DNA of 64,000 nt. It comes from Escherichia phage Lindwurm. Within the stretch, counting starts at the first letter, position 1, and the number at the start of each line of letters is the position of its first letter. The notes under the pieces were generated by a model, which saw nothing but the letters and a program-made list of their open reading frames with translations, ran no database searches and was not told the origin of the DNA. This document shows, piece after piece, positions 16,583 through 44,972 of the stretch. The stretch is from sequence record NC_134264.1. One strand, 5' to 3'. A program made the translations under genes and the position numbers.

Positions 16583-17378
16583 AAGGTCTACCCTCTAAAT
16601 GAGCTTCTACACGAGCAATAAAATCAGGATCACTGAAAGCATCTACCGCACCTTTACTCCAGTAAGGGATACCGCGTTCTTCCAGCTGGTACATCTCACT
16701 ACGAGTCATACCTTGATAGCTCGGTTCCGCCGCTAGGGCACTATCATAGTAGTTAACAACCATTAGCTTGGCAGCAGTCAAATTAAGAACAGGAAATAAT
16801 TCCCAGTAGAAGTTAATTACTTGGTTAGAGCAACCAACCACAACGATCATATCTTGACTGGTAATACCATCAAAAACATTGTACATTTCTGCGTACGCTG
16901 GAGCATGCTCCCCAAAAAAGATTACATTAGGTTTAACCCATTTATAATCGTCTGGATCAATAGAATTGTACCCTACATCAATAATCCGTTTATTGCTACT
17001 ATTGTAGCTATCAGCTACAACAACCTCTTTTAAATATCCGTGAATGTGCAGAATGTCACTATGTGGAACGCCAGCACGCTCAATAAGGTCATCAACGTTG
17101 GTAGTCAAGTTTACTACTTGGCCTGGATATTGTTTATACCATTCACCAATACGCAAATGCGCAAGATTGGGTTCAACAGTTTTTAGCTCTTCACGACGCT
17201 TGTTGTAAAACATATGGGTTTTATGATAAAAATTACCACGAAAGGCATGAATATTACATACCTCTTCTAGATCATAATCATCCCACAATGCTTTACCGCT
17301 AGCAGTATCAGTACGAAAAGCTCGTACACCACTTTCAACACTCAAACCTGCACCACTAATAATAATTAATCTACGCAT
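16563..17378 (-). CDS. Sir2-family (sirtuin-like) NAD-dependent protein
   Basis: GAGLSVESGVRAFR Rossmann/NAD motif, TTNVDDL, HIHG. Confidence 0.65.
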   Translation of the reverse strand: MRRLIIISGAGLSVESGVRAFRTDTASGKALWDDYDLEEVCNIHAFRGNFYHKTHMFYNKRREELKTVEPNLAHLRIGEWYKQYPGQVVNLTTNVDDLIERAGVPHSDILHIHGYLKEVVVADSYNSSNKRIIDVGYNSIDPDDYKWVKPNVIFFGEHAPAYAEMYNVFDGITSQDMIVVVGCSNQVINFYWELFPVLNLTAAKLMVVNYYDSALAAEPSYQGMTRSEMYQLEERGIPYWSKGAVDAFSDPDFIARVEAHLEGRPYVSGNK

Positions 17379-17592
17379 TTTTCACCTGTTCTCTGAAGTT
17401 TTGCCCAATACTGTCTAATAGCTCAGCTAATTCTTTATTGCCTTTCTCCATTAAGGTATTAGCAATAACTTCTAGCATAGTAGCACAGGATTCAACACCA
17501 TCCTTATAGCCAGTTTCCCACTGCTGCATTAATGCGTTTTCCAAAGCGTCGTTTAAACCCTTATCTGGTAGCATCGGCTTCGAGAATGCCAT
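17371..17592 (-). CDS. hypothetical protein
   Basis: 73-aa ORF. Confidence 0.4.
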   Translation of the reverse strand: MAFSKPMLPDKGLNDALENALMQQWETGYKDGVESCATMLEVIANTLMEKGNKELAELLDSIGQNFREQVKNA

Positions 17593-17785
17593 AAAGTTTC
17601 TCCTCTAGTTCCATAACACGATTTTCATAAGAGGCACGCAACTTTTCAATTGCCAGCGCACGCACTGTAACCTCATTAGAATTAATAGCTAATTGGGCCA
17701 GATCTTCTGTTTCCATACGTCCGTTGTAAATTAAGCGATATTTAAGGTGTTTCACATTCTTAGTCATTATTAAACTCCACTGCAA
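17561..17785 (-). CDS. hypothetical protein
   Basis: 74-aa ORF; start may be internal. Confidence 0.35.
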   Translation of the reverse strand: MQWSLIMTKNVKHLKYRLIYNGRMETEDLAQLAINSNEVTVRALAIEKLRASYENRVMELEEKLYGILEADATR

Positions 17786-18140
17786 CTGTTTCTAGGTCTT
17801 CATCAGAAAAATTAGAGTATACATCTTTAAGGTATTGTTTAATGTCTTCAGTAATATCTTCGTATCCCTCAGGAATACGTTGGTATACTTTTAGTACTCT
17901 ATTATAAACAAATTCAATATCATACTTTATTTCACCCTCATCCTCGTCAAACAAGCAATCTGAGTTATACGGTGATACATCTAGATTTGTTTCTACCCAA
18001 TCACCAATAATTGATGGATATCCAATACCCTCTAGATGGGAATAATCTCCAGTAGATGCAAAAATAGCTTCTCTAAGATCGTCTACGCCAAGATGGAAAC
18101 CACCACATGTAGACTCAACTATATAGGGCTTTAATTCCAT
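17760..18140 (-). CDS. hypothetical acidic protein
   Basis: 126-aa ORF downstream of promoter. Confidence 0.5.
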   Translation of the reverse strand: MELKPYIVESTCGGFHLGVDDLREAIFASTGDYSHLEGIGYPSIIGDWVETNLDVSPYNSDCLFDEDEGEIKYDIEFVYNRVLKVYQRIPEGYEDITEDIKQYLKDVYSNFSDEDLETVAVEFNND

Positions 18141-25167: not shown

Positions 25168-25697
25168 TAACGGCATTATATGCAGTTGGGCCGAATGGGG
25201 AGTTCGGCCTCCGAGGTAAACTCCCCTGGGGTTCCTTCAGAGAAGAACTAGATGCTTTCTACTCTCAACTGGACGTGTTGAACCCAGATAACATCATCAT
25301 TGGTGCGGGTACTTATTTAGCACTTCCAGAAGTTGTTCGGCAACGTATGATTGGAGAATCTGACCTCTTTATTCGTGCGGATCGTCCTCTGCCTGATGAT
25401 ATTAAACATGGTATCTATACCCCAATTTCAAAGATTGGGGATACATTACCTACGTTCTTAAAAGATCAGCAGACAGTGGTTTTAGGTGGTGCAACATTAC
25501 TGTACGAAATGTATATTCATGGACATATTGAAAGTGCTTTTGTATCCACAATCTTTAGTACTCAAAAACTAGAGGCAGATGTATATCTGGATAATACGAT
25601 TCTAGATTACAACTATGAATCTACTCGTTTAGTTTACGCAACTGGCGCAAACAGTGATAACAGCCTGCGATTTGTACAGGAATTGGTTACTTATTAA
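25164..25697 (+). CDS. dihydrofolate reductase
   Basis: N-terminal ITALYAVGPNGEFGLRGKLPW, DHFR-like; sits between nrdB and thyA. Confidence 0.7.
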   Translation: MITALYAVGPNGEFGLRGKLPWGSFREELDAFYSQLDVLNPDNIIIGAGTYLALPEVVRQRMIGESDLFIRADRPLPDDIKHGIYTPISKIGDTLPTFLKDQQTVVLGGATLLYEMYIHGHIESAFVSTIFSTQKLEADVYLDNTILDYNYESTRLVYATGANSDNSLRFVQELVTY

Positions 25698-26536
25698 TGC
25701 AACAATATTTAAAAATTCTAACAGATGTAATTTTACTGGGTGAACCACGTAACGATCGTACAGGGACAGGCACGGTTTCAATTTTTGATTCCTATGCTAA
25801 GTTCGACCTACGTGAAGGATTTCCCGCCGTAACCACTAAACGTCTAGCTTGGAAATCAGTAGTTGGAGAACTCCTATGGTTTTTATCTGGATCTACAAAT
25901 CTCCATGATCTGCGAGTATTCACATTTGGGCGTGACGAAGGACAGTGGACTATCTGGACTCCAAATTATGAAGACCAAGCTATAAGTATGGGCTATGACA
26001 ACGGTAATCTAGGACCAGTATATGGTAAACAGTGGCGTAACTTTGGCGGACGAGATCAGATTCTAGAACTCATTGAGGGTCTCAAGAATAATCCACATGG
26101 TCGTAGACACCTAGTATCTGCATGGAACGTAGCTGAACTGGATAAGATGGCATTACCACCATGTCACTATGGTTTCCAATGTTACGTAAGTAATGATGGA
26201 TACTTAGACCTTAAATGGACACAACGTTCTGTAGACTGTTTTCTAGGCCTACCTTTCAATATTGCTAGTTATGCTTTATTAACACATATCCTAGCAAAAT
26301 TGACTGGATTAAAACCTCGTTATCTCATCTTTAGTGGTGGAGATACACATATCTACAGTGATCATATAGAGCAAGTAGAGGAGCAAATGAAACGTAAACC
26401 ACGTCCTTTGCCAACTCTAGTAATGCCAGAGTTTGTAGATCTCTATGATTTATTAGAGAATAATACTGCGGCTTGGTCTTTCAAGCTGGAAGGGTATGAT
26501 CCGCATCCAGCTCTTAAAGCTAAAATGTCCTCTTAA
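25697..26536 (+). CDS. thyA: thymidylate synthase
   Basis: RNDRTGTGT, active-site LPPCH. Confidence 0.9.
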   Translation: MQQYLKILTDVILLGEPRNDRTGTGTVSIFDSYAKFDLREGFPAVTTKRLAWKSVVGELLWFLSGSTNLHDLRVFTFGRDEGQWTIWTPNYEDQAISMGYDNGNLGPVYGKQWRNFGGRDQILELIEGLKNNPHGRRHLVSAWNVAELDKMALPPCHYGFQCYVSNDGYLDLKWTQRSVDCFLGLPFNIASYALLTHILAKLTGLKPRYLIFSGGDTHIYSDHIEQVEEQMKRKPRPLPTLVMPEFVDLYDLLENNTAAWSFKLEGYDPHPALKAKMSS

Positions 26537-26542
26537 CTTAAG

Positions 26543-26566
26543 TAGCCCTTCGGGGCTATTATATTT
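26543..26566 (+). terminator. rho-independent terminator
   Basis: TAGCCC-TTCG-GGGCTA hairpin followed by U-rich tract. Confidence 0.6.
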
Positions 26567-26687
26567 GAAATTGTACTTGCTTATTAAGTACAATTTCAAA
26601 TATAATATACTCAATAAGTACAAAAGGATAATAAAATGAGTAGAGAAATTGAATTAGAACAAGCCCTTCTGAATTTACTCCAATTAC

Positions 26688-27020
26688 TTGCAGGGTGATA
26701 AAGAAACTATTACTAAGGAACAGGTATTATTAATACTAGACTCTATCACTTCTAAATTCAGGACTTTAGAAGACTACTACTCTGTAGGCAATGGAGATGA
26801 GAAGGTAGAGTTATGTCTAAATCTCCTAGAAGATATGGGTTGGGATGAGGAAGATCAAGTAGGATATTTAGGTATATCTACAGAAATTCTAGAAAATACA
26901 GAGCATGAAAATATACTTGAAGTAAAGAGCAGAAGTGCTATTCGGTATAATACTTATGGTACAGGTATTACAGGAATAAAAGCATTACTTAGTATAGATA
27001 TAGGATGGTTAGATGAATAA
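26688..27020 (+). CDS. hypothetical protein; start unresolved (possible frameshift from the 26636 ATG)
   Basis: track ORF starts at TTG; a 20-codon ORF with good RBS at 26636 ends in TGA at 26696-26698 in the -1 frame. Confidence 0.4.
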   Translation: MQGDKETITKEQVLLILDSITSKFRTLEDYYSVGNGDEKVELCLNLLEDMGWDEEDQVGYLGISTEILENTEHENILEVKSRSAIRYNTYGTGITGIKALLSIDIGWLDE

Positions 27021-27561
27021 AAAGTTACCTAGCCAAGAAAGATTAAAAGAATTATTAATCTATGATCCAGATACCGGTATATTTACTAATAAGGTAAGTC
27101 GTGGTAGGGGAGGAAAAGCAGGTTCACCCGCTGGATACCTAAGAAAAGATGGCTATATAACTATTAAGATAGATAAAATAGATTATTTAGCACATAGACT
27201 AGCCTTTCTATACATGACAGGATCAATACCAGATTTAATAGACCACAAAAATAGGATTAGGTCAGATAATAGGTGGATAAACCTAAGAGAAGCTACAAGC
27301 CAGTCTAATAATAGAAACTGTACCGCATCGAGTAAATCTGGATATCTAGGTGTACACTGGAACAAACAATTACAGAAATGGCAAGTACAGGTGATTGATA
27401 ATAAAGGTAAAAATATTTATGGGGGTGTTTTTGACTACTTAGACCTAGAAAGTGCGGTCATAAAGGCTAATGAACTGAGAAAAACACTTCATGGTAGCGA
27501 AGCAGTTATAGAAGATTTCTATACTAACTATTACCCACCAGTAGAGGAACTTAATAAGTGA
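27013..27561 (+). CDS. HNH homing endonuclease
   Basis: IDHKNRIRSDNRWINLREATSQSNNRN. Confidence 0.75.
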   Translation: MNKKLPSQERLKELLIYDPDTGIFTNKVSRGRGGKAGSPAGYLRKDGYITIKIDKIDYLAHRLAFLYMTGSIPDLIDHKNRIRSDNRWINLREATSQSNNRNCTASSKSGYLGVHWNKQLQKWQVQVIDNKGKNIYGGVFDYLDLESAVIKANELRKTLHGSEAVIEDFYTNYYPPVEELNK

Positions 27562-28034
27562 GCGTTTTCCACATTTACACAGATGGTGCTTGTAAGTCTA
27601 ACCCAGGTCCAGGTGCTTGGGGTTTTATTGTCTATGATGATAACGACGATCGTTTAGGTTCTAAATCTGGTTATAATCCTAAAACTACAAATAATGAGAT
27701 GGAACTCACAGCTATTGTAGAAGCTCTACGTTGGTCTGTTAAAAAAGATAATAGACCAATTGCTATCTATACTGACTCTGCTTATTGCAAAAACGGCATG
27801 GAAAGTTGGATGTTTTCTTGGCAAAGGAAAGGCTGGAAGAAAGCAGATGGTGAAGTTCCTCTTAATCTAGAACTTTGGCAGGAAGCATTTAAATTAACAC
27901 AGCAGTATATCAACTTTCATAATACTAATCCTACCTTTATTAAGGTTAAAGGACATTCTGGTATTAGTGGTAATGAAGCTGTAGATGCATTGTGTAATAC
28001 TGTTATTACTGAGCAAGAACTTGCCGAGATGTGA
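27558..28034 (+). CDS. rnhA: ribonuclease H
   Basis: IYTDGACKSNPGPGAWG ... ELTAI ... YTDSAY RNase H1 motifs. Confidence 0.85.
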   Translation: MSVFHIYTDGACKSNPGPGAWGFIVYDDNDDRLGSKSGYNPKTTNNEMELTAIVEALRWSVKKDNRPIAIYTDSAYCKNGMESWMFSWQRKGWKKADGEVPLNLELWQEAFKLTQQYINFHNTNPTFIKVKGHSGISGNEAVDALCNTVITEQELAEM

Positions 28035-30002: not shown

Positions 30003-30704
30003 ATGAAAGTAAAACCATTTGGTATGCTAGATATTGAATCTCTAGGAACTCCAGGAGATTGTGGTACTACTCATATCGCAATGCCTTCTTTCGCTTTTGT
30101 GGCTATGCATGGAATTGATAAAGACCCTGACTTAGTATTTGTTACTTTGGATGTGCAGGATCAGCTTAATTCTGGTGCCAAAGTTACAGCATCTACTCTA
30201 GCATTCTGGATGGATCAGGCTAAACATAGCCCGTCTGCTATCCACATTATGGAAGCTATGAATGAGCGTAATCCAAAACTGATTGCCTTCCAAAATGGTA
30301 AACATCATTGCACTAATAAACTTGGCTCTAACCATGCTGCCTTCTCTATGGCTCAAAATATTATGGAGTTGGCTCTAGGCGAAAATGCTTTGTATTATGG
30401 CAATGGCCCAGAGTTTGATATGACTATCTACTCTGCAAACACTTTCCATGCTGGAACCAATGAAGAAATAGTTCCGTGGAAATTCTGGAACTTGGGTAAT
30501 GTTAGATCTCTTCGTAATCTCTGGATGCAAACTGGCTATAGTTATAAAGCTCTAGAAACCGAAGGTATTAGCTGGGCAATAGCTAAAATGGAGAAGATGG
30601 ACACCATTCGTTATGGGATCTATCCGGTTAAGCACGATCCAGCATTCGATGCCCTAGTTGAGAGCTATTGTGTTGCAGCTATGATCGAAAAAGTGAAAAT
30701 TTGA
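30003..30704 (+). CDS. putative DEDD-type 3'-5' exonuclease
   Basis: LDIESLG (Exo I D-x-E), YGNGPEFD, HDPAFD (H-x4-D). Confidence 0.55.
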   Translation: MKVKPFGMLDIESLGTPGDCGTTHIAMPSFAFVAMHGIDKDPDLVFVTLDVQDQLNSGAKVTASTLAFWMDQAKHSPSAIHIMEAMNERNPKLIAFQNGKHHCTNKLGSNHAAFSMAQNIMELALGENALYYGNGPEFDMTIYSANTFHAGTNEEIVPWKFWNLGNVRSLRNLWMQTGYSYKALETEGISWAIAKMEKMDTIRYGIYPVKHDPAFDALVESYCVAAMIEKVKI

Positions 30705-32032: not shown

Positions 32033-32061
32033 TTGCTAATCTACTAAATTATATGTATAAT
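32033..32061 (+). promoter_or_regulatory. early-type promoter
   Basis: TTGCTA-17-TATAAT. Confidence 0.6.
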
Positions 32062-32091: not shown

Positions 32092-32409
32092 ATGACTTTT
32101 CATATTTTGATTGATGATGTGCGTAATCTTCATGGAATGGACATTATCATTCGAACCCCAGAAGCCGCTGTAGAGTTTCTGAATAAAACTGATACCACAG
32201 GCCATTTCGTTTATATGGATAATGACTTGGCTGTAGATGGTATGGAAGGTTATCAAATTCTTCGTTTACTCTTAGAATTTGGGCAGAGACCAAAGAAAGT
32301 GGTACTAGTAACCTCGAACCCAGTAGCTAAGCAAAATATGCGTAATGATTTGCTTGACTTAGGGTATAAAGAAAATCCCAATCGTGTTGAATATGATTGG
32401 CAGGAGTAA
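32092..32409 (+). CDS. hypothetical protein
   Basis: 105 aa. Confidence 0.5.
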   Translation: MTFHILIDDVRNLHGMDIIIRTPEAAVEFLNKTDTTGHFVYMDNDLAVDGMEGYQILRLLLEFGQRPKKVVLVTSNPVAKQNMRNDLLDLGYKENPNRVEYDWQE

Positions 32410-32872: not shown

Positions 32873-32901
32873 TTGCTTAAATACTTAAATTTCCGTATAA
32901 T
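32873..32901 (+). promoter_or_regulatory. early-type promoter
   Basis: TTGCTT-17-TATAAT. Confidence 0.6.
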
Positions 32902-33102
32902 ACTTCCATAAATTAATGAGAGGAAGCGAAATATGAAATCAGTTGTAATTATTGGTGTTAACACTCGCGGTATTCGTACTACGAAAACTGTTAAAACTTC
33001 TAACGTTGCTGAAATCACTACGAACCCTAAAAAGTTTGATTTCGCCAAAGTCTCAGCAGTTATGACAGAACAATCTTTTAACCAAGCGTTAGGAATGAAA
33101 TA

Positions 33103-33657
33103 ATGGAAGAGAATATTTTAGATGTTTTGCGTAGAGCTTTGCAGGATTCTAAGTTTAATGGTTCTGATAAAGAAGTCGCTAAAAGCTATCAGACCATAGT
33201 TGGGGATCTTCAGCGTATTGATAAAGACTTCATCACTTCAGAACAATTTGTGTCTTATCTCAAAGCTCAACTAAAAAGCATTAACCAGATGAAAGCTAAA
33301 CTTCATGGTCAAGATCTTGATAGTTATAGCTTGCAGTCTGCTCAGTATGAATACATTCTAAATAAGTGGTTGCAGGAGTATCTGCCCCCTCAGTTGTCTG
33401 ATACTGAGATTCGTAAATACTTTGCAGAATTAGTTAAGCTAAACCCCGGAATTACAAAGGGTATGCTGATGAAAGCGATTAAGGAAGAATTTCCTGGGCG
33501 TTATGATGGTGGTACTGCTGCTCAGATTGCTGGCGAATTTAACCAAGCAGATAGTTTAGTAAACTTAATAAAAGTTGCTAAACAGGATATTTCAGAAGGT
33601 AAATCATATACGCAAGAAGAAGCACTTGCTAAATTAAAGTCCGATAGATTAAACTAA
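33103..33657 (+). CDS. GatB/YqeY-domain protein
   Basis: EYLPPQLSDTEIRKYFAELV...MLMKAIKEEFPGRYDGGTAAQIAGEF closely resembles YqeY C-terminal domain (from memory). Confidence 0.6.
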   Translation: MEENILDVLRRALQDSKFNGSDKEVAKSYQTIVGDLQRIDKDFITSEQFVSYLKAQLKSINQMKAKLHGQDLDSYSLQSAQYEYILNKWLQEYLPPQLSDTEIRKYFAELVKLNPGITKGMLMKAIKEEFPGRYDGGTAAQIAGEFNQADSLVNLIKVAKQDISEGKSYTQEEALAKLKSDRLN

Positions 33658-33665
33658 AAATTTAT

Positions 33666-33694
33666 TTGCTAAATGCCTTTAAATTCTGTATAAT
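33666..33694 (+). promoter_or_regulatory. early-type promoter
   Basis: TTGCTA-17-TATAAT. Confidence 0.6.
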
Positions 33695-33719
33695 ATATTC
33701 ATAAATTAGAGAACAGCGA

Positions 33720-34490
33720 GCCGATTACGCTGAGTGCAGAATCCCAACCGGAGCGCATTGAATAGAGTCGGTGGGTTAGTTGTAAAACTAGTACACAGGG
33801 GGCGGCAATCCCGGTTAGTGGCTAGAACGTGTAAAATGAGGCGTCTGAAACCTCTCCCCTAAACTCTTCTCTAATTTATAAATAGTGGGGTGTGGAAATC
33901 ACTTATGTAGTAACACTGCCGTACTAGTATAATTGGTATTATCAAGCCGTAACTGGTGGAAGATGTAGGTTCGAATCCTACGGTCGGTAAGAACTGGATA
34001 ACTGGTGCTTTTAATGTAAAAGCTTCCGAGGTTAGTTGCGCACTGCCTAAACCACGCGGTAGTTGGTTCCAGACTAACCAACCAGTCTGCTGAATAGTTT
34101 TATTACGATTTAACTATGTCCAGGCTAAAGAAGAACTTTAGAAGGTATTCTAGGATAGTGAAGTTCTTTCTCCATATCGGAGTAGTTTTTCAAGCTATCC
34201 CCAAAGTGGGAAATGCTGACATGAGAGATGTCACTAATGGTGCACAATAGCACAGGTAATTCGCGATAACTCCTGTTGAGTAGCAGCAAAAGGCGGGAAG
34301 TCATGACCCCAAGCCTAACCGAGTCCTCAATATACCGCAGGACATAACCACTAAGTCACCCTGACTTAAACTGGAAAATAATAGACGTTACCGTATTTTG
34401 TCTTGAAATACTTAATGAGTGAGACTTATGACTCTCCCGGTATCGTCTGTATTTTTAAGAGTTTTTACAAGAGTTCTTAAAAATACTTAA
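33720..34490 (+). ncRNA. structured non-coding leader/RNA region of unknown function
   Basis: about 770 nt without credible ORF, downstream of a promoter; orphan T-arm GTAGG-TTCGAAT-CCTAC at 33965-33981; mutually exclusive hairpins at 34050-34090. Confidence 0.35.
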
Positions 34491-34491
34491 A

Positions 34492-34566
34492 CGGGGTGTA
34501 GTCTAAGGGAGAGGCAGGAGTCTTCTAAATTCCTTTATGCAGGTTCGAATCCTGTCACCTCGGCCA
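34492..34566 (+). tRNA. tRNA-Arg (anticodon UCU)
   Basis: acceptor CGGGGTG/CACCTCG, D-stem GTCT/AGGC, anticodon loop CTTCTAA, T-arm GCAGG-TTCGAAT-CCTGT, encoded CCA. Confidence 0.7.
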
Positions 34567-38198: not shown

Positions 38199-38276
38199 GG
38201 TTCTCAAGCTCATATGGTATGAGCACCCAGCTCATAACTGGAAGGTACGTAGGTTCGAATCCTCGGGGAGCCACCA
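38199..38276 (+). tRNA. tRNA with CAU anticodon (Met/fMet/Ile2)
   Basis: acceptor GGTTCTC/GGGAGCC with G-U pairs, D-arm GCTC-ATATGGTAT-GAGC, anticodon loop CTCATAA; T-stem poorly paired. Confidence 0.55.
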
Positions 38277-39328: not shown

Positions 39329-39604
39329 ATGCAAAATCGTGTTATAGCAGCTGGTATTGAAAGTGCAATCTGTAAATCCTGGGAAGGCTGGGAAGGTGAG
39401 ATTGAATGGCTTTATTTCTACGATGTAGAGCTTCTGCCGGAAATTAAAGCTAAATGTGTTGAAGCTGGCATGTCTCCAGATGCAAGAGCTGATATTGATA
39501 TTTCAATGTCTGAACTTAAAGGTCGTGTAATCACTGTTAGTGATGAGGGCGAAGAAGTTTTTGAACTTCCGTTCTCCTTAACTGTCACTCCTAAGTTCGA
39601 CTAA
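39329..39604 (+). CDS. hypothetical protein
   Basis: 91 aa. Confidence 0.5.
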   Translation: MQNRVIAAGIESAICKSWEGWEGEIEWLYFYDVELLPEIKAKCVEAGMSPDARADIDISMSELKGRVITVSDEGEEVFELPFSLTVTPKFD

Positions 39605-39640
39605 CTAATACAGCATTGGGCAAGTTCTTTAAAATTTGAC

Positions 39641-39669
39641 TTGCCCAATACTATAAAACTTGGTATAAT
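39641..39669 (+). promoter_or_regulatory. early-type promoter
   Basis: TTGCCC-17-TATAAT. Confidence 0.55.
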
Positions 39670-39802
39670 ATTTATCTAATTTGGAAAGTTCTTTTTAAGG
39701 TAGTTCTTACTTTAGCAGAGTAAATTTTTGGCAGATGGCCCCCACCATTTTACCGATAACTCCTAGTCAGTGCGGTAACACTGGCTACCTTAAAGAGAAT
39801 TT

Positions 39803-39890
39803 GGGCGTTTATTCCGTAAGTGGTAGCGGAGGGGACTGTAAATCCCTGGTCATTGCGACTCGAGTGGTTCGACTCCATTAACGCCCACCA
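39803..39890 (+). tRNA. tRNA-Tyr (anticodon GUA), class II
   Basis: acceptor GGGCGTT/AACGCCC, anticodon loop CTGTAAA, long variable arm, T-loop TTCGACT, CCA. Confidence 0.7.
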
Positions 39891-39897
39891 ATTTAAT

Positions 39898-39972
39898 GCA
39901 CCTATCGTCTAGCGGTTAGGACACCACTCTTTCACAGTGGGAACACGAGTTCGATCCTCGTTGGGTGTGCCA
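39898..39972 (+). tRNA. tRNA-Glu (anticodon UUC)
   Basis: acceptor GCACCTA/TGGGTGT, anticodon stem CCACT/AGTGG loop CTTTCAC, T-arm ACGAG-TTCGATC-CTCGT, CCA. Confidence 0.7.
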
Positions 39973-39981
39973 ATTAATAAT

Positions 39982-40052
39982 TGGGGTACGCATAGGTTGC
40001 AAATGGGCCTCCAAAACCCATGAAAAGGTTTCGAATACCTTTACCCCTGCCA
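39982..40052 (+). tRNA. tRNA-Trp (anticodon CCA), tentative
   Basis: T-arm AAGGT-TTCGAAT-ACCTT, acceptor 3' TACCCCT + G + CCA, anticodon loop CTCCAAA; 1-72 mismatch and weak D-stem. Confidence 0.5.
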
Positions 40053-42874: not shown

Positions 42875-42948
42875 GGGGATATAGTTTAATGGTAGAACAT
42901 CTGCTTTGCACGCAGAAGACGAGGGTTCAACTCCCTCTTTCTCCACCA
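42875..42948 (+). tRNA. tRNA-Ala (anticodon UGC)
   Basis: acceptor GGGGATA/TTTCTCC, D-arm GTTT-AATGGTA-GAAC, anticodon stem TCTGC/GCAGA loop TTTGCAC, T-arm GAGGG-TTCAACT-CCCTC, CCA. Confidence 0.7.
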
Positions 42949-42953
42949 AATTT

Positions 42954-43038
42954 GGGGCTATGCTGGAACTGGTAGACAATACGGCCTTAGATTCCGTAGC
43001 TTAAATGCGTGGGAGTTCGAGTCTCCCTAGCCCCACCA
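42954..43038 (+). tRNA. tRNA-Leu (anticodon UAG), class II
   Basis: acceptor GGGGCTA/TAGCCCC, anticodon loop CTTAGAT, 13-nt variable arm, T-arm GGGAG-TTCGAGT-CTCCC, A73, CCA. Confidence 0.7.
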
Positions 43039-43054
43039 ACTTATAGGGTAATGT

Positions 43055-43639
43055 ATGCAGTTTGTACCAATAAAAGATGCACCAGGGTATTTAGTAAATG
43101 AAACAGGGGATGTGTTATCTACATTTACTAATAAAATTTTATCAAGATATATAGTTGATGGATACCCTGCTGTAAAATTACAGATAAATGGTAAGCAAAC
43201 TTCGGTACTTATACACCGAATTATTTCTCATGTATTTGGGGACTTATATAATCTATTTGACCCTGAATTAGAAGTAGATCACAAGGATAGAGATAGGCTG
43301 AATCTATCTAAAGATAATCTTCAAGTTTTGTCAAAAATAGAACATCAGAAGAAAACTAATAAAGATAATGGATGGTCTGATAGTAGAGTACCTTGCCCCT
43401 TATGTGGAAATCTAATGCTTCAGAGATCAGTAACATGTACAAATTGTAAGCCAAAACCTACAGGAAAGTTAATAAAACCAGAATTGTCCTTAGAAGACAT
43501 AACTGAAAAGGTTTTATTAATGGGGTGGGTTAAGGCAGCTAAAGATCTAGAAGTATCAGAGTCCACTTTACGTAGACGATATACTAAACTAACCGGATTA
43601 AGCCCAAAAGTATTAACAGAACAACGGAAAAGCAAATAG
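43055..43639 (+). CDS. HNH homing endonuclease
   Basis: EVDHKDRDRLNLSKDNLQVLSKIEHQKK HNH motif; C-terminal Cys cluster and HTH-like tail; sits inside tRNA island. Confidence 0.75.
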   Translation: MQFVPIKDAPGYLVNETGDVLSTFTNKILSRYIVDGYPAVKLQINGKQTSVLIHRIISHVFGDLYNLFDPELEVDHKDRDRLNLSKDNLQVLSKIEHQKKTNKDNGWSDSRVPCPLCGNLMLQRSVTCTNCKPKPTGKLIKPELSLEDITEKVLLMGWVKAAKDLEVSESTLRRRYTKLTGLSPKVLTEQRKSK

Positions 43640-43719
43640 ACTGGTGACTAAACCCGATTGGAAATCGGTTGAGTGGTAGCAATACCGCCTTATGGGTTCA
43701 ACTCCCATCTTTTCCGCCA
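43626..43719 (+). tRNA. tRNA-Ser (anticodon GGA), class II
   Basis: acceptor GGAAAAG/CTTTTCC, anticodon stem CCGA/TCGG loop TTGGAAA, long variable arm, T-arm ATGGG-TTCAACT-CCCAT, CCA; 5' end overlaps HNH stop by about 14 nt. Confidence 0.55.
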
Positions 43720-43731
43720 AACAATTTATAC

Positions 43732-43826
43732 GGTAGGTCAATCCAACGGCTGGCGCTGGACTCCGACTTGAAATCGGTTGATCGTAGTGATACGGTGTAA
43801 GGGTTCGATCCCCTTACCTACCTCCA
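43732..43826 (+). tRNA. tRNA-Ser (anticodon UGA), class II
   Basis: acceptor GGTAGGT/ACCTACC, anticodon stem CCGA/TCGG loop CTTGAAA, long variable arm, T-arm AAGGG-TTCGATC-CCCTT, CCA. Confidence 0.6.
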
Positions 43827-44192
43827 AATCTTGAAGTATGCCGGAATCGGTAGACGGGGCTGCCTAAAAGGTTTATAGAGAACATCCACTCTCTACAACA
43901 TACCTCATAAAGCGGCTGAGATAAATGGTCTATCTCGTGAAGGTTCAAGTCCTTCTGCTTCTTGATACACCTATGGCTCAAAGTGTAACGGTGCTATTTG
44001 ATACTCTTAGTAAGACTTTCCCGACATGCGTTCGGGAGTAAGCTGCTAAGGCTAGAGTAGAAGAGTTTCGGAGAGCCGCCACAATTGAAAATTCGTACTC
44101 GTCTTGAGCTGCGTGCAATAGGAGATAACTTGATTAGTATTCTAGAACATGCTAATTGAGGAAGGTTTCGCTAACCCTGCGAGTTTTCAATT
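43827..44192 (+). ncRNA. structured non-coding region with orphan T-arm and 14-bp inverted repeat
   Basis: T-arm-like GAAGG-TTCAAGT-CCTTC at 43939-43955 with no matching acceptor; stem-loop CCCGA-CATGCGT-TCGGG; IR GCCACAATTGAAAA (44078-44091) / TTTTCAATTGTGGC (44184-44197). Confidence 0.35.
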
Positions 44193-44888: not shown

Positions 44889-44896
44889 AGTAATAA

Positions 44897-44972
44897 GCGG
44901 TTAAGCACACGGGTTGTGTCGCAGGCCTTCCAAGCCTAGCTGAGTAGGGTTCGATTCCCTCTAGCCGCTCCA
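44897..44972 (+). tRNA. tRNA-Gly (anticodon UCC)
   Basis: acceptor GCGGTTA/TAGCCGC, anticodon stem AGGC/GCCT loop CTTCCAA, T-loop TTCGATT, CCA. Confidence 0.65.

What the first reader, a model, noticed from the sequence alone, without database searches (positions are those of the whole stretch)
33103..33657. GatB/YqeY-domain protein next to tRNA and structured RNA region
The C-terminal part (LPPQLSDTEIRKYFAELV...MLMKAIKEEFPGRYDGGTAAQIAGEF) closely resembles the YqeY/GatB C-terminal tRNA-binding domain. It lies immediately upstream of the non-coding region at 33720-34490 and tRNA-Arg. A phage YqeY-like protein could chaperone or protect phage tRNAs or influence aminoacylation.
Basis: partly seen in the sequence, partly recalled or inferred. 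Interest (0 to 1): 0.55.

Follow-up and report, generated by a model that had tools for sequence, protein, structure and literature searches.

The report
T5-type phage YqeY-like protein
This gene is the already-annotated T5.081-type YqeY-fold protein at the edge of the tRNA gene cluster of T5-like phages: a real, conserved, non-enzymatic helical protein whose function is unknown in phages and in bacteria.

Summary
Window 33103-33657 (+) is a real gene (dN/dS 0.03-0.15) in a T5-like phage that is 98% identical in DNA to Salmonella phage VSe12. It is the orthologue of T5.081 (PHROG 1460, E=2.8e-46). GenBank records call it "YqeY domain-containing", "tRNA amidotransferase" or, wrongly, "recombination-related exonuclease".

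- A rare 37-residue C-terminal tail, from a 111-bp in-frame insertion shared with one GenBank phage (WP85) and one metagenome protein.
- The ORF is a sharply bounded island of divergence between otherwise 97-100% identical genomes.
- The downstream "structured region" is T5's annotated stable RNA, RNAX.

A tRNA- or RNA-related adaptor role is plausible but unproven. Isolated YqeY domains do not bind tRNA, and T5 st0 is annotated as carrying only a non-functional remnant of the gene. This is a known family of modest interest.

The parts
33103..33657 (+). Complete ORF, 184 aa plus stop: the YqeY-like protein, orthologue of T5.081.
   Evidence: ORF list. PHROG 1460 E=2.8e-46. 98% nucleotide identity of the region to Salmonella phage VSe12, where the gene is annotated 'tRNA amidotransferase'. 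T5.081 sits in the same position. dN/dS 0.03-0.15.
33103..33378 (+). N-terminal helical subdomain (residues 1-92). This is the hyper-divergent part of the gene.
   Evidence: The AF2 model has helices 5-18, 23-39, 46-66, 70-74 and 77-93, with pLDDT mostly 85-95. It aligns colinearly with the N-terminal domain of 1NG6/8XJE. Nucleotide identity to SE11 and WP85 falls to 46-66% here, while the flanks are 97-100%.
33379..33543 (+). C-terminal YqeY/GatB-tail-like helical subdomain (residues 93-147). It carries the most conserved residues of the family: M123, K127, G132, Y134, D135, G136.
   Evidence: The Pfam YqeY match covers residues 90-141. The motif aligns with G..M...G[KR].DG of B. subtilis YqeY and of the GatE tail.
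33544..33654 (+). 111-bp in-frame insertion that adds a 37-residue helical C-terminal tail (QADSLVNLIKVAKQDISEGKSYTQEEALAKLKSDRLN).
   Evidence: Absent from VSe12 and BUCT632. Found in only one other GenBank phage, WP85, and in one metagenome protein, P0012. Its DNA is 100% identical to WP85, although the neighbouring C-terminal coding stretch is only about 90% identical and the downstream promoter differs at several bases. GC is 30.6% against 38.3% for the gene core. About 55% identical to the C-terminus of an Aeromonas phage avDM6 protein.
32933..33103 (+). Upstream 56-aa ORF (DUF7616, orthologue of T5.082). Its stop codon overlaps the YqeY start (TAATG), so the two are probably co-transcribed and translationally coupled.
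   Evidence: ORF list and sequence. Pfam PF24592 E=4.7e-33. PHROG 5077. Found only in the T5-type loci examined, not in My1-like, Novosibvirus or the other phage loci examined.
32873..32901 (+). Promoter-like TTGCTT-17-TATAAT preceded by an A-rich tract, at the position of T5 promoter P-D/E 33. It would drive the DUF7616-YqeY pair.
   Evidence: Read from the sequence. The T5 annotation places a promoter between T5.083 and T5.082. It was not flagged by the consensus scan, because the -35 hexamer matches only 3 of 6.
33666..33694 (+). Promoter TTGCTA-17-TATAAT immediately after the stop codon (T5 'P 16-17'). It drives RNAX and tRNA-Arg.
   Evidence: Consensus scan, 10 of 12 matches. T5 annotation. 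This promoter sequence recurs 4-5 times per T5-like genome.
33702..34491 (+). Non-coding region equal to T5 rnaX (stable RNA of unknown function), with an embedded tRNA-like element at 33918-33989. It is context, not part of the protein.
   Evidence: T5 misc_RNA rnaX lies in the same position. Rfam tRNA scores 29.9 bits at 33918-33989. ARAGORN calls a 'tRNA-Ser(ACT)' at the homologous place in T5. The content is mosaic: window 33713-33861 is absent in T5. The MFE z-score is only -1.85.
34492..34566 (+). tRNA-Arg(TCT), the first tRNA of the cluster.
   Evidence: ARAGORN. Rfam 49.3 bits.

Best explanation
The gene encodes a non-catalytic, all-helical, two-subdomain protein of the stand-alone YqeY family, the same fold as the helical and tail domains at the C-terminus of GatB/GatE. 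It is the T5.081 orthologue of a T5-like phage.

Expression (inferred): it is transcribed from a T5-type promoter together with the 56-aa DUF7616 ORF, just upstream of the promoter that drives RNAX and the tRNA cluster.

Most likely mode of action (inferred, not shown): it works as an adaptor, or affinity enhancer, rather than as an enzyme.
- The strongly conserved C-terminal helical hairpin (M123, K127, G132, Y134-D135-G136) keeps the motif shared with YqeY and with the GatE tail. In the amidotransferases that domain lies next to the tRNA D-loop/elbow. Here it would contact a tRNA-shaped RNA: phage tRNAs, their precursors, or the tRNA-like modules of RNAX.
- The hyper-variable N-terminal subdomain would dock onto a variable protein partner of the host or phage.

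E. coli has no yqeY of its own (PMC13374519), so the phage supplies this activity. The gene is an accessory one: the record of the T5 st0 deletion mutant annotates it as a non-functional remnant. The 37-residue C-terminal tail in this phage is a recently exchanged add-on of unknown role.
For: Identity (shown):
- PHROG 1460 E=2.8e-46.
- The T5-family profile finds 817 representative proteins at E<=1e-3 among 1.84 billion; almost all of the 150 listed are 130-155 aa and match over nearly their full length.
- Of the 54 proteins in alignment A5 (the window core plus 53 of these hits), 48 match Pfam YqeY (best E=4.9e-29) and all 54 match PHROG 1460.
- The extended profile hits solved YqeY structures over their full length: 1NG6 1.5e-18, 8XJG 4.6e-18, 8XJE 4.1e-13. 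It also hits the GatE tail, 1ZQ1, at 3.5e-3.

Not an enzyme (shown): there is no GatB_N or GatB_Yqey Pfam hit, and the family core of 147 aa is far too short for GatB.

Selection (shown): dN/dS is 0.03-0.15.

Conserved C-terminus, variable N-terminus (shown): see the invariant columns and the identity profile of 46-66% in 33100-33400 against 78-83% in 33400-33500, with flanks at 97-100%.

tRNA context (shown): the gene sits at the edge of, or inside, the tRNA cluster in Tequintavirus, My1-like, Novosibvirus, Thalassavirus and Pseudomonas phage Milchi.

Literature:
- The GatB/GatE tail is implicated in tRNA D-loop recognition, and the YqeY domain raises the affinity of D. radiodurans GlnRS for tRNA-Gln (PMC2811023, PMC1865053).
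- E. coli lacks yqeY (PMC13374519).
- Preliminary, unpublished evidence that YqeY binds OLE RNA is cited in PMC12054373.

Accessory gene: in the T5 st0 deletion-mutant record the gene is a 'nonfunctional' remnant, with the deletion junction directly after it.
Against: - No binding or phenotype data exist for any phage YqeY; a search for the T5 locus tags found no paper.
- The isolated YqeY domain of D. radiodurans GlnRS does not shift tRNA and does not work in trans (PMC1865053), so free YqeY may not bind tRNA by itself.
- In four or five other phage lineages the YqeY-like gene is not next to tRNA genes.
- Conserved gene order within one phage family is weak evidence of functional linkage. tRNA clusters of large phages are also general dumping grounds for accessory genes.
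- A YqeY-superfamily protein (NUQM in Pichia complex I) works purely as a protein-protein bridge (PMC12487887).
Confidence: 0.5

Rival explanations
1. Protein-protein adaptor with no RNA ligand, engaged in a phage-host or phage-phage conflict. The YqeY fold is used as a scaffold that binds, inhibits or redirects a host protein such as a defence component or part of the translation machinery. Alternatively the protein is itself sensed by a defence system, which would explain why its N-terminal domain is swapped between otherwise identical phages.
For: - The ORF is a sharply bounded divergence island: the neighbours DUF7616, cREC, SleB and SPFH are 97-100% identical in protein, against 55% for YqeY, in SE11-type phages.
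- The identity distribution shows discrete allele classes: 331 records at >=80% and 118 at <60%.
- The 111-bp tail was recently exchanged.
- The isolated YqeY domain does not bind tRNA (PMC1865053).
- The protein is acidic.
Against: - Mosaic islands are common in these genomes: 14 in 50 kb against SE11. The pattern is therefore not specific to conflict genes.
- The most conserved part is exactly the motif shared with the tRNA-proximal tail of GatE and with YqeY.
- The only anti-defence-like sequence hit (AcrIF14, E=0.1-0.6) is not significant and is not echoed in the fold searches.
- I did not search PADLOC or any other defence library.
Confidence: 0.25
2. Ribosome-linked or bS21-linked translation factor. 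As in bacteria, where yqeY is co-transcribed and co-regulated with rpsU (bS21), the phage protein acts on the 30S subunit or on translation initiation, giving E. coli or Salmonella ribosomes a factor the host lacks.
For: - yqeY lies in the rpsU operon and is co-regulated with bS21 in Francisella, and the gene is absent from E. coli (PMC13374519).
- The phage protein is a full-length YqeY, not just a GatB tail.
Against: - No direct evidence links YqeY to the ribosome in any organism.
- No bS21 gene or other ribosomal protein gene lies near the phage gene.
- The conserved phage context is tRNA genes, not ribosomal genes.
Confidence: 0.12
3. Dedicated protein partner of RNAX. The YqeY-like protein and the adjacent stable RNA of about 0.75 kb, which carries tRNA-like modules, form a phage ribonucleoprotein.
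For: - The arrangement of the gene, a 0.7-1.8 kb non-coding stretch and tRNA-Arg(TCT) is kept from Tequintavirus to Novosibvirus and the My1-like phages.
- RNAX contains a tRNA-like element.
- There is a parallel with the reported, unpublished YqeY-OLE RNA association (PMC12054373).
Against: - The non-coding stretches of the My1-like phages and of Novosibvirus share only about 30-135 nt of detectable similarity with RNAX.
- RNAX is itself mosaic, and its overall predicted stability is not exceptional (z=-1.85).
- YqeY-like genes occur in many phages that have no such neighbour.
Confidence: 0.08
4. The database labels are literally true: the protein is a subunit of a tRNA-dependent amidotransferase, or a recombination-related exonuclease.
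For: The only support is product names in GenBank, RefSeq and PHROGs.
Against: - The protein has no GatB catalytic cradle domain and no nuclease domain. The core is 147 aa and entirely helical.
- No GatA or GatC gene is annotated near the gene in VSe12 or T5.
- E. coli and Salmonella make Gln-tRNA and Asn-tRNA directly with GlnRS and AsnRS (established knowledge).
- The 'exonuclease' name has no domain support at all and looks like annotation carry-over. A real exonuclease gene (T5.087 type) lies about 3 kb upstream, at window 30003-30704.
Confidence: 0.01

Closest known systems
T5.081 of Escherichia phage T5 and its orthologues in Demerecviridae (PHROG 1460). Product names include 'tRNA amidotransferase', 'YqeY domain-containing protein' and 'GatB domain containing protein'.
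   Same: - Same gene in the same position: cREC-like ORF, SleB hydrolase, DUF7616, YqeY, promoter, RNAX, tRNA-Arg, SPFH lipoprotein.
- The core is 99% identical to a protein cluster with 143 member sequences.
   Different: - It is only 50% identical to T5's own allele.
- It carries a 37-residue C-terminal extension, seen in only one other GenBank phage (WP85) and one metagenome protein.
Bacterial stand-alone YqeY (Pfam PF09424; structures 1NG6 from B. subtilis, 8XJE from C. jejuni, 8XJG from V. parahaemolyticus). Its function is unknown, and the gene often shares an operon with rpsU.
   Same: - Colinear full-length profile match.
- Shared YLPxQL(S/T)xxE and G..M...G[KR].DG motifs.
   Different: - Sequence identity is only about 13-20%.
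- The single-sequence Pfam score is below the gathering cut-off.
- It is encoded by a lytic phage of hosts that lack yqeY, next to tRNA genes rather than rpsU.
- It has the extra C-terminal tail.
C-terminal helical and tail domains of GatB/GatE (Pfam PF02637), the tRNA D-loop-recognising part of tRNA-dependent amidotransferases.
   Same: Same superfamily. The extended profile reaches the GatE tail (1ZQ1, E=3.5e-3), with the G..M...G[KR].DG motif aligned.
   Different: - No catalytic cradle domain, and no PF02637 hit.
- It lacks the GatB-specific extra helix and the KxGKxK Lys-rich motif (one search read against PMC2811023).
- It is not fused to any enzyme.
YqeY domain appended to Deinococcus radiodurans GlnRS.
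   Same: A YqeY module used as a non-catalytic enhancer of tRNA affinity. This is the best experimental precedent for the proposed adaptor role (PMC1865053).
   Different: That domain works only in cis, and as an isolated domain it does not bind tRNA. The phage protein is free-standing, so it would need a partner.
Aim41 / NUQM, the mitochondrial YqeY-superfamily protein that bridges the two arms of Pichia pastoris complex I.
   Different: It acts as a protein-protein bridge with no RNA involved (PMC12487887), which shows that the fold does not dictate RNA binding.

Membership tests
Stand-alone YqeY family (Pfam PF09424) | Scores above Pfam's curated gathering threshold for PF09424 | tested here: not met
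   24.9 bits against a cut-off of 27 (E=2.4e-5), with only residues 90-141 matched. 18 of 28 close relatives match at E<=0.01.
Stand-alone YqeY family (Pfam PF09424) | Full-length, colinear homology to bona fide YqeY proteins at profile level | tested here: met
   The T5-family profile finds 817 representative proteins; almost all of the 150 listed are about 140 aa and match over nearly their full length. 48 of the 54 proteins in alignment A5 (the window core plus 53 of these hits) match PF09424, with a best E of 4.9e-29. The extended profile hits 1NG6 at 1.5e-18 (positions 1-141 against 1-147), 8XJG at 4.6e-18 and 8XJE at 4.1e-13.
Stand-alone YqeY family (Pfam PF09424) | Two-subdomain, all-helical YqeY fold | tested here: met
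   [not shown]
Stand-alone YqeY family (Pfam PF09424) | Free-standing protein of about 140-150 aa | tested here: met
   Relatives are 140-150 aa. Here a 147-aa core carries a 37-aa add-on.
Stand-alone YqeY family (Pfam PF09424) | Typical (not obligatory) genomic context: an operon with rpsU (bS21) | tested here: not met
   The phage context is DUF7616 upstream and RNAX with tRNA-Arg downstream. The rpsU-yqeY linkage is described in PMC13374519 and PMC12054373.
GatB/GatE subunit of tRNA-dependent amidotransferase | N-terminal catalytic cradle domain (Pfam GatB_N, PF02934) | tested here: not met
   No hit at E<=10. The protein is 184 aa and entirely helical.
GatB/GatE subunit of tRNA-dependent amidotransferase | GatB_Yqey domain (PF02637) match | tested here: not met
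   No PF02637 hit at E<=10. There is only a remote profile link to the GatE tail (E=3.5e-3).
GatB/GatE subunit of tRNA-dependent amidotransferase | GatB-specific extra helix with the Lys-rich KxGKxK motif in the tail domain (PMC2811023) | tested here: not met
   The corresponding loop reads LNPGITKG with no KxGKxK. The arrangement is that of YqeY-C (alignments).
GatB/GatE subunit of tRNA-dependent amidotransferase | Partner subunits GatA and GatC (or GatD) encoded by the phage or the host | not tested
   None is annotated near the gene in VSe12 or T5: 1.5 kb of flank shown for VSe12, and 2.6-3.4 kb on either side of T5.081. I did not scan the whole window. That E. coli and Salmonella use the direct GlnRS/AsnRS route is established knowledge, not tested here.
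PHROG 1460 / T5.081 orthologue group | Significant full-length match to the family profile, and conserved position between the SleB-type hydrolase and tRNA-Arg(TCT) | tested here: met
   E=2.8e-46, residues 3-146 against profile positions 1-139 of 140. Synteny is shown.
'Recombination-related exonuclease' (a label in many GenBank records) | Any nuclease domain or catalytic motif | tested here: not met
   No nuclease family appears in Pfam or NCBIfam. The fold is YqeY.

The most novel reading that the evidence does not exclude
The phage YqeY-like protein is a two-faced adaptor in the fight over tRNAs. Its conserved C-terminal hairpin grips the elbow of phage tRNAs or of the tRNA-like modules of RNAX, perhaps forming an RNAX ribonucleoprotein. 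Its cassette-like, rapidly exchanged N-terminal domain, and in this phage the extra tail, engages variable host factors such as tRNA-targeting defence nucleases or aminoacyl-tRNA synthetases. If so, this would give the first function for the widespread YqeY family, in a host (E. coli) that has no YqeY of its own.
Probability: 0.1. Interest if true: 0.7.

Novelty: already known. Interest (0 to 1): 0.3.

Why it matters
In itself the finding is an ordinary re-identification of an annotated accessory gene of T5-like phages. Its practical value is a correction: 'tRNA amidotransferase' and 'recombination-related exonuclease' are misnomers for a non-catalytic YqeY-fold protein.

It could still matter, for three reasons.
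- No function has been established for stand-alone YqeY, although a structure has been available since 2003 (1NG6) and the papers read here (2007-2026) still call the protein uncharacterised.
- E. coli has no yqeY, so a dispensable phage copy offers a clean genetic system for finding what the fold does.
- The gene sits in the T5 tRNA region, whose tRNAs were recently shown to neutralise tRNA-cleaving defences such as PARIS and retron effectors (PMC11464382, PMC11555353). Its N-terminal domain shows allele replacement between near-identical phages, a pattern also seen in conflict genes.

Tried and rejected
- **Single-sequence phmmer against PDB.** It found no YqeY or GatB chain. The best hits were sortase B (E=0.06) and a fatty-acid synthase ACP region, both taken as chance.
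- **NCBIfam.** No family matched the whole protein or the tail.
- **AcrIF14.** It appeared with the family profiles at E=0.1-0.6. I rejected it: the match is not significant, covers about 55-70 profile positions, and is absent from both fold searches.
- **Identity of the C-terminal tail.**
  - Pfam gave only DUF7337 at E=0.045.
  - tblastn against phages found only WP85 and one Aeromonas phage protein, which itself has no Pfam family.
  - A 46-column alignment query found no candidate.
  - An antitoxin-like motif that I recalled from memory was never tested, and I make no claim for it.
- **First representative search.** I repeated it with A4.
- **Literature.** A search for T5.081, T5.082, T5.080 and T5p079 returned nothing. 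The 2024 structural paper on the C. jejuni and V. parahaemolyticus YqeY proteins is not in the library.
- **DUF7616 as a universal partner.** Rejected: among the loci examined it occurs only in the T5-type ones.
- **Universal YqeY-tRNA adjacency.** Rejected: it is absent in four to five non-Demerecviridae lineages.
- **RNAX homology beyond the T5-type phages.** Only about 30-135 nt of similarity was found.
- **Isoelectric point as a hint of RNA binding.** Uninformative: phage and bacterial YqeY proteins are both mildly acidic.
Full report
**1. What is there**

Window 33103-33657 (+) is an ATG-initiated ORF of 184 codons. The quoted motif (LPPQLSDTEIRKYF...IAGEF) is at residues 94-146.

The window comes from a T5-like phage. 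A 4-kb stretch around the gene is 97-98% identical to many Tequintavirus genomes; the best match is Salmonella phage VSe12. The window carries at least 21 tRNA genes between 34.5 and 46.5 kb.

The ORF is the positional and sequence orthologue of T5.081 in phage T5. Gene order around it, on the + strand:
- promoter-like site at 32033-32061
- a 105-aa cREC_REC-domain ORF
- an SleB-type cell-wall hydrolase
- a promoter (TTGCTT-17-TATAAT, 32873-32901, read; T5 'P-D/E 33')
- a 56-aa DUF7616 ORF whose stop overlaps the start of our gene (TAATG)
- the YqeY-like gene
- a promoter (TTGCTA-17-TATAAT, 33666-33694; T5 'P 16-17')
- about 0.8 kb of non-coding DNA
- tRNA-Arg(TCT) at 34492-34566
- an SPFH-type lipoprotein

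This order is supported. In the T5 RefSeq record the non-coding stretch is annotated as rnaX, a 'stable RNA with unknown functions'.

**2. Is it a real gene?**

Yes.
- PHROG 1460 matches at E=2.8e-46 over the whole core.
- tblastn finds homologues in 453 phage records.
- Pairwise dN/dS among relatives of the same allele class is 0.03-0.15.

**3. Is it YqeY/GatB-like?**

- Pfam YqeY (PF09424) scores 24.9 bits, E=2.4e-5. That is below the curated 27-bit cut-off, and the match covers only residues 90-141.
- phmmer against PDB finds nothing relevant, and NCBIfam finds nothing.

Deeper evidence is decisive.
- (i) A profile of 28 T5-type relatives has 1NG6 (B. subtilis YqeY) as its best PDB hit, colinear over positions 6-138 against 4-141, although only at E=0.016.
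- (ii) A profile of 17 relatives, run exhaustively against 1.84 billion representative proteins, finds 817 proteins at E<=1e-3. Almost all of the 150 listed are 130-155 aa and match over nearly their full length.
- (iii) In alignment A5 (the window core plus 53 of these hits), 48 of the 54 proteins are Pfam YqeY, with a best E of 4.9e-29, and all 54 are PHROG 1460.
- (iv) The profile of that extended set hits the three solved YqeY proteins over their full length: 1NG6 1.5e-18, 8XJG 4.6e-18, 8XJE 4.1e-13. It also hits the C-terminal tail of GatE (1ZQ1, 3.5e-3).
- (v) An AlphaFold2 model (mean pLDDT 85, all helical) has YqeY structures as its six best Foldseek PDB hits.

So the whole 147-residue core, not only the C-terminal part, is a complete stand-alone YqeY. 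It shares the motifs YLPxQL(S/T)xxE and G..M...G[KR].DG.

It is not GatB.
- There is no catalytic cradle domain.
- It lacks the GatB-specific helix with the KxGKxK motif described in PMC2811023; the loop reads LNPGITKG.

The product names 'tRNA amidotransferase' and 'recombination-related exonuclease' seen in GenBank, RefSeq and PHROGs are therefore misnomers.

**4.

(a) *A rare C-terminal tail.* Relatives are 140-150 aa. The window protein is 184 aa because of a 111-bp in-frame insertion (33544-33654) just before the stop codon, flanked by TTTAAC/TTAAAC microhomology.
- The insertion occurs in only one other GenBank phage, Salmonella phage WP85, and in one metagenome protein, P0012.
- The cores of those two proteins belong to a different allele class, about 68% identical to the window protein.
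- The tail DNA is 100% identical between the window and WP85. Yet the neighbouring C-terminal coding stretch is only about 90% identical, the downstream promoter differs at several bases, and the N-terminal parts cannot be aligned as DNA. This points to recent lateral exchange.
- AF2 models the tail as a continuation of the last helix followed by a second short helix, at moderate confidence.
- Its only other detectable relative is the C-terminus of a hypothetical protein of Aeromonas phage avDM6, about 55% identical.
- Its function is unknown, and further searches were empty.

(b) *A divergence island.*
- Against SE11-type phages and WP85, nucleotide identity is 97-100% right up to the start codon.
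- It drops to 46-66% across 33100-33400 and recovers to 78-83% in the conserved C-terminal motif.
- In WP85 it is back at 93% or more from 33500 on, because WP85 shares the tail. In the SE11 type, which lacks the tail, it returns to 99% only downstream of the gene.
- The four neighbouring proteins are 97-100% identical, whereas YqeY is 55%.
- The identity distribution over all records has few intermediate values: 331 records at >=80%, 4 at 60-80% and 118 at <60%. The alleles therefore fall into discrete classes.
- Over 50 kb compared with SE11 there are 14 low-identity islands. Most are presence/absence differences, and YqeY is one of the few that are homologous but strongly diverged.
- Mosaicism is thus common in these phages. 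The pattern is suggestive of cassette exchange and possibly of diversifying selection on the N-terminal subdomain, but it is not proof.

(c) *The gene looks dispensable.* In the record of the T5 st0 deletion mutant the gene is annotated as a 'nonfunctional' 162-bp remnant. The st0 recombination site lies directly after that remnant. Deletions in the T5 tRNA region are described as non-essential in PMC11464382.

**5. Context in other phages**

The position next to tRNA genes is kept throughout Demerecviridae. The gene lies directly upstream of a non-coding stretch and tRNA-Arg(TCT) in:
- Tequintavirus and its divergent allele types
- My1-like phages (39% identity)
- Proteus Novosibvirus (32% identity)

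It lies inside the tRNA cluster in Vibrio Thalassavirus. The association recurs in the unclassified 175-kb Pseudomonas phage Milchi, where tRNAs lie on both sides and an RNA ligase gene is nearby.

The association is not universal. YqeY-like genes have no tRNA within 4 kb in Justusliebigvirus (where the neighbour is a gene labelled 'putative tRNA synthetase' that has no Pfam support), Aeromonas CC2, Sinorhizobium phiN3 and Pseudomonas Cassandra. Ralstonia RsoM2USA has one tRNA 3.5 kb away.

The family is widespread in large lytic phages.

**6. How it most likely works**

Shown: the fold, the absence of catalytic domains, purifying selection, the conserved C-terminal motif, the variable N-terminus and the tRNA-cluster context. 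Everything else in this section is inference.

Relevant literature:
- The GatB/GatE tail is implicated in tRNA D-loop recognition through a conserved pocket (PMC2811023).
- The YqeY domain fused to D. radiodurans GlnRS raises its affinity for tRNA-Gln. It does so only in cis, and the isolated domain does not bind tRNA (PMC1865053).
- Bacterial yqeY is co-transcribed with rpsU and is absent from E. coli (PMC13374519).
- Binding of YqeY to OLE RNA is mentioned as preliminary, unpublished evidence (PMC12054373).
- A YqeY-superfamily protein is a pure protein bridge in Pichia complex I (PMC12487887).

My best reading is a non-catalytic adaptor. The conserved C-terminal hairpin would contact a tRNA-shaped RNA: phage tRNAs, their precursors, or the tRNA-like parts of RNAX. 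The variable N-terminal subdomain would dock on a protein partner.

| Reading | Confidence |
|---|---|
| Identity as a YqeY-family protein | about 0.95 |
| RNA-adaptor mechanism | about 0.4 |
| Rival: protein-only adaptor in a host-phage conflict | 0.25 |
| Rival: ribosome/bS21-linked factor | 0.12 |
| Rival: dedicated RNAX partner | 0.08 |
| Rival: literal amidotransferase or exonuclease | about 0.01 |

**7. Novelty and verdict**

The gene family, its YqeY/GatB-like nature and its location are already recorded in public annotation. GenBank records name it 'Yqey domain-containing protein' and 'GatB domain containing protein', PHROG 1460 covers it, and T5.081 is its prototype.

Modest residual interest comes from four points: the unknown function of YqeY in general, the fact that the host lacks it, the sharply bounded allele replacement, and the rare exchanged tail. 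Interest is 0.3.

Noticed in passing
window 32092-32409 (+): A 105-aa ORF (T5.084 orthologue) matches Pfam PF20274 cREC_REC, the 'cyclic-phosphate processing receiver domain', at E=3.8e-15. It lies two genes upstream of the YqeY-like gene and near the tRNA cluster. The Pfam name points to RNA-end processing.
   Followed up: partly
window 32933-33103 (+): A 56-aa DUF7616 ORF (PF24592, E=4.7e-33) has a stop codon that overlaps the YqeY start (TAATG). Among the loci examined it occurs only in the T5-type ones and is absent from the My1-like, Novosibvirus and other phage loci.
   Followed up: partly
window 33702-34491 (+): This non-coding region equals T5 rnaX, a stable RNA of unknown function. 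It is mosaic: 33713-33861 is present here, in VSe12 and in SE11 but absent in T5. It contains a tRNA-like element at 33918-33989 (Rfam tRNA 29.9 bits) that ARAGORN calls 'tRNA-Ser(ACT)' in T5. The MFE z-score is only -1.85.
   Followed up: partly
window 33544-33654 (+): The 111-bp tail segment is 100% identical to Salmonella phage WP85, although the neighbouring coding stretch is only about 90% identical. Its GC is 30.6% against 38.3% for the gene core. It is flanked by TTTAAC/TTAAAC. The encoded peptide resembles the C-terminus of Aeromonas phage avDM6 UYD59463. Its origin and role are unknown.
   Followed up: yes
window 38199-38273, 43732-43822, 44896-44969 (+): Rfam reports tRNA or tRNA-Sec-like matches (38.2, 38.3 and 30.9 bits) that ARAGORN did not call. 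They may be extra or degenerate tRNA genes within the cluster.
   Followed up: no
window 33657-33712, and 4-5 places per T5-like genome: The promoter block AAAAATTTATTTGCTAAATGC...TATAATAT recurs several times per genome: 2027 places in 487 records. Near-identical copies lie at 32033-32061 and 33666-33694, and a variant at 32873-32901. These are the classic strong T5 promoters.
   Followed up: partly
window about 4900-54800 compared with Salmonella phage SE11 (L044): Median identity is 97.3%, with 14 low-identity islands. Examples are 25627-27577, 42877-43927 and 17377-18127, which look like presence/absence differences. Another island, 39577-40027, is diverged but still alignable and covers tRNA-Tyr.
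   Followed up: no
L037 3410-3982 (Escherichia phage PaulScherrer, Justusliebigvirus): The gene directly upstream of this phage's YqeY-like gene is annotated 'putative tRNA synthetase' (190 aa) but has no significant Pfam match.
   Followed up: partly
L026 4001-4438 (a T5-like phage contig from IMG/VR): A chimeric YqeY allele. Its N-terminal 115 or so residues are of the window type, and its last 30 or so residues are of the slur09/DT57C type (...KALLMKTIKAEFPGRYDGKTTALIASEFF). This shows recombination inside the gene.
   Followed up: no
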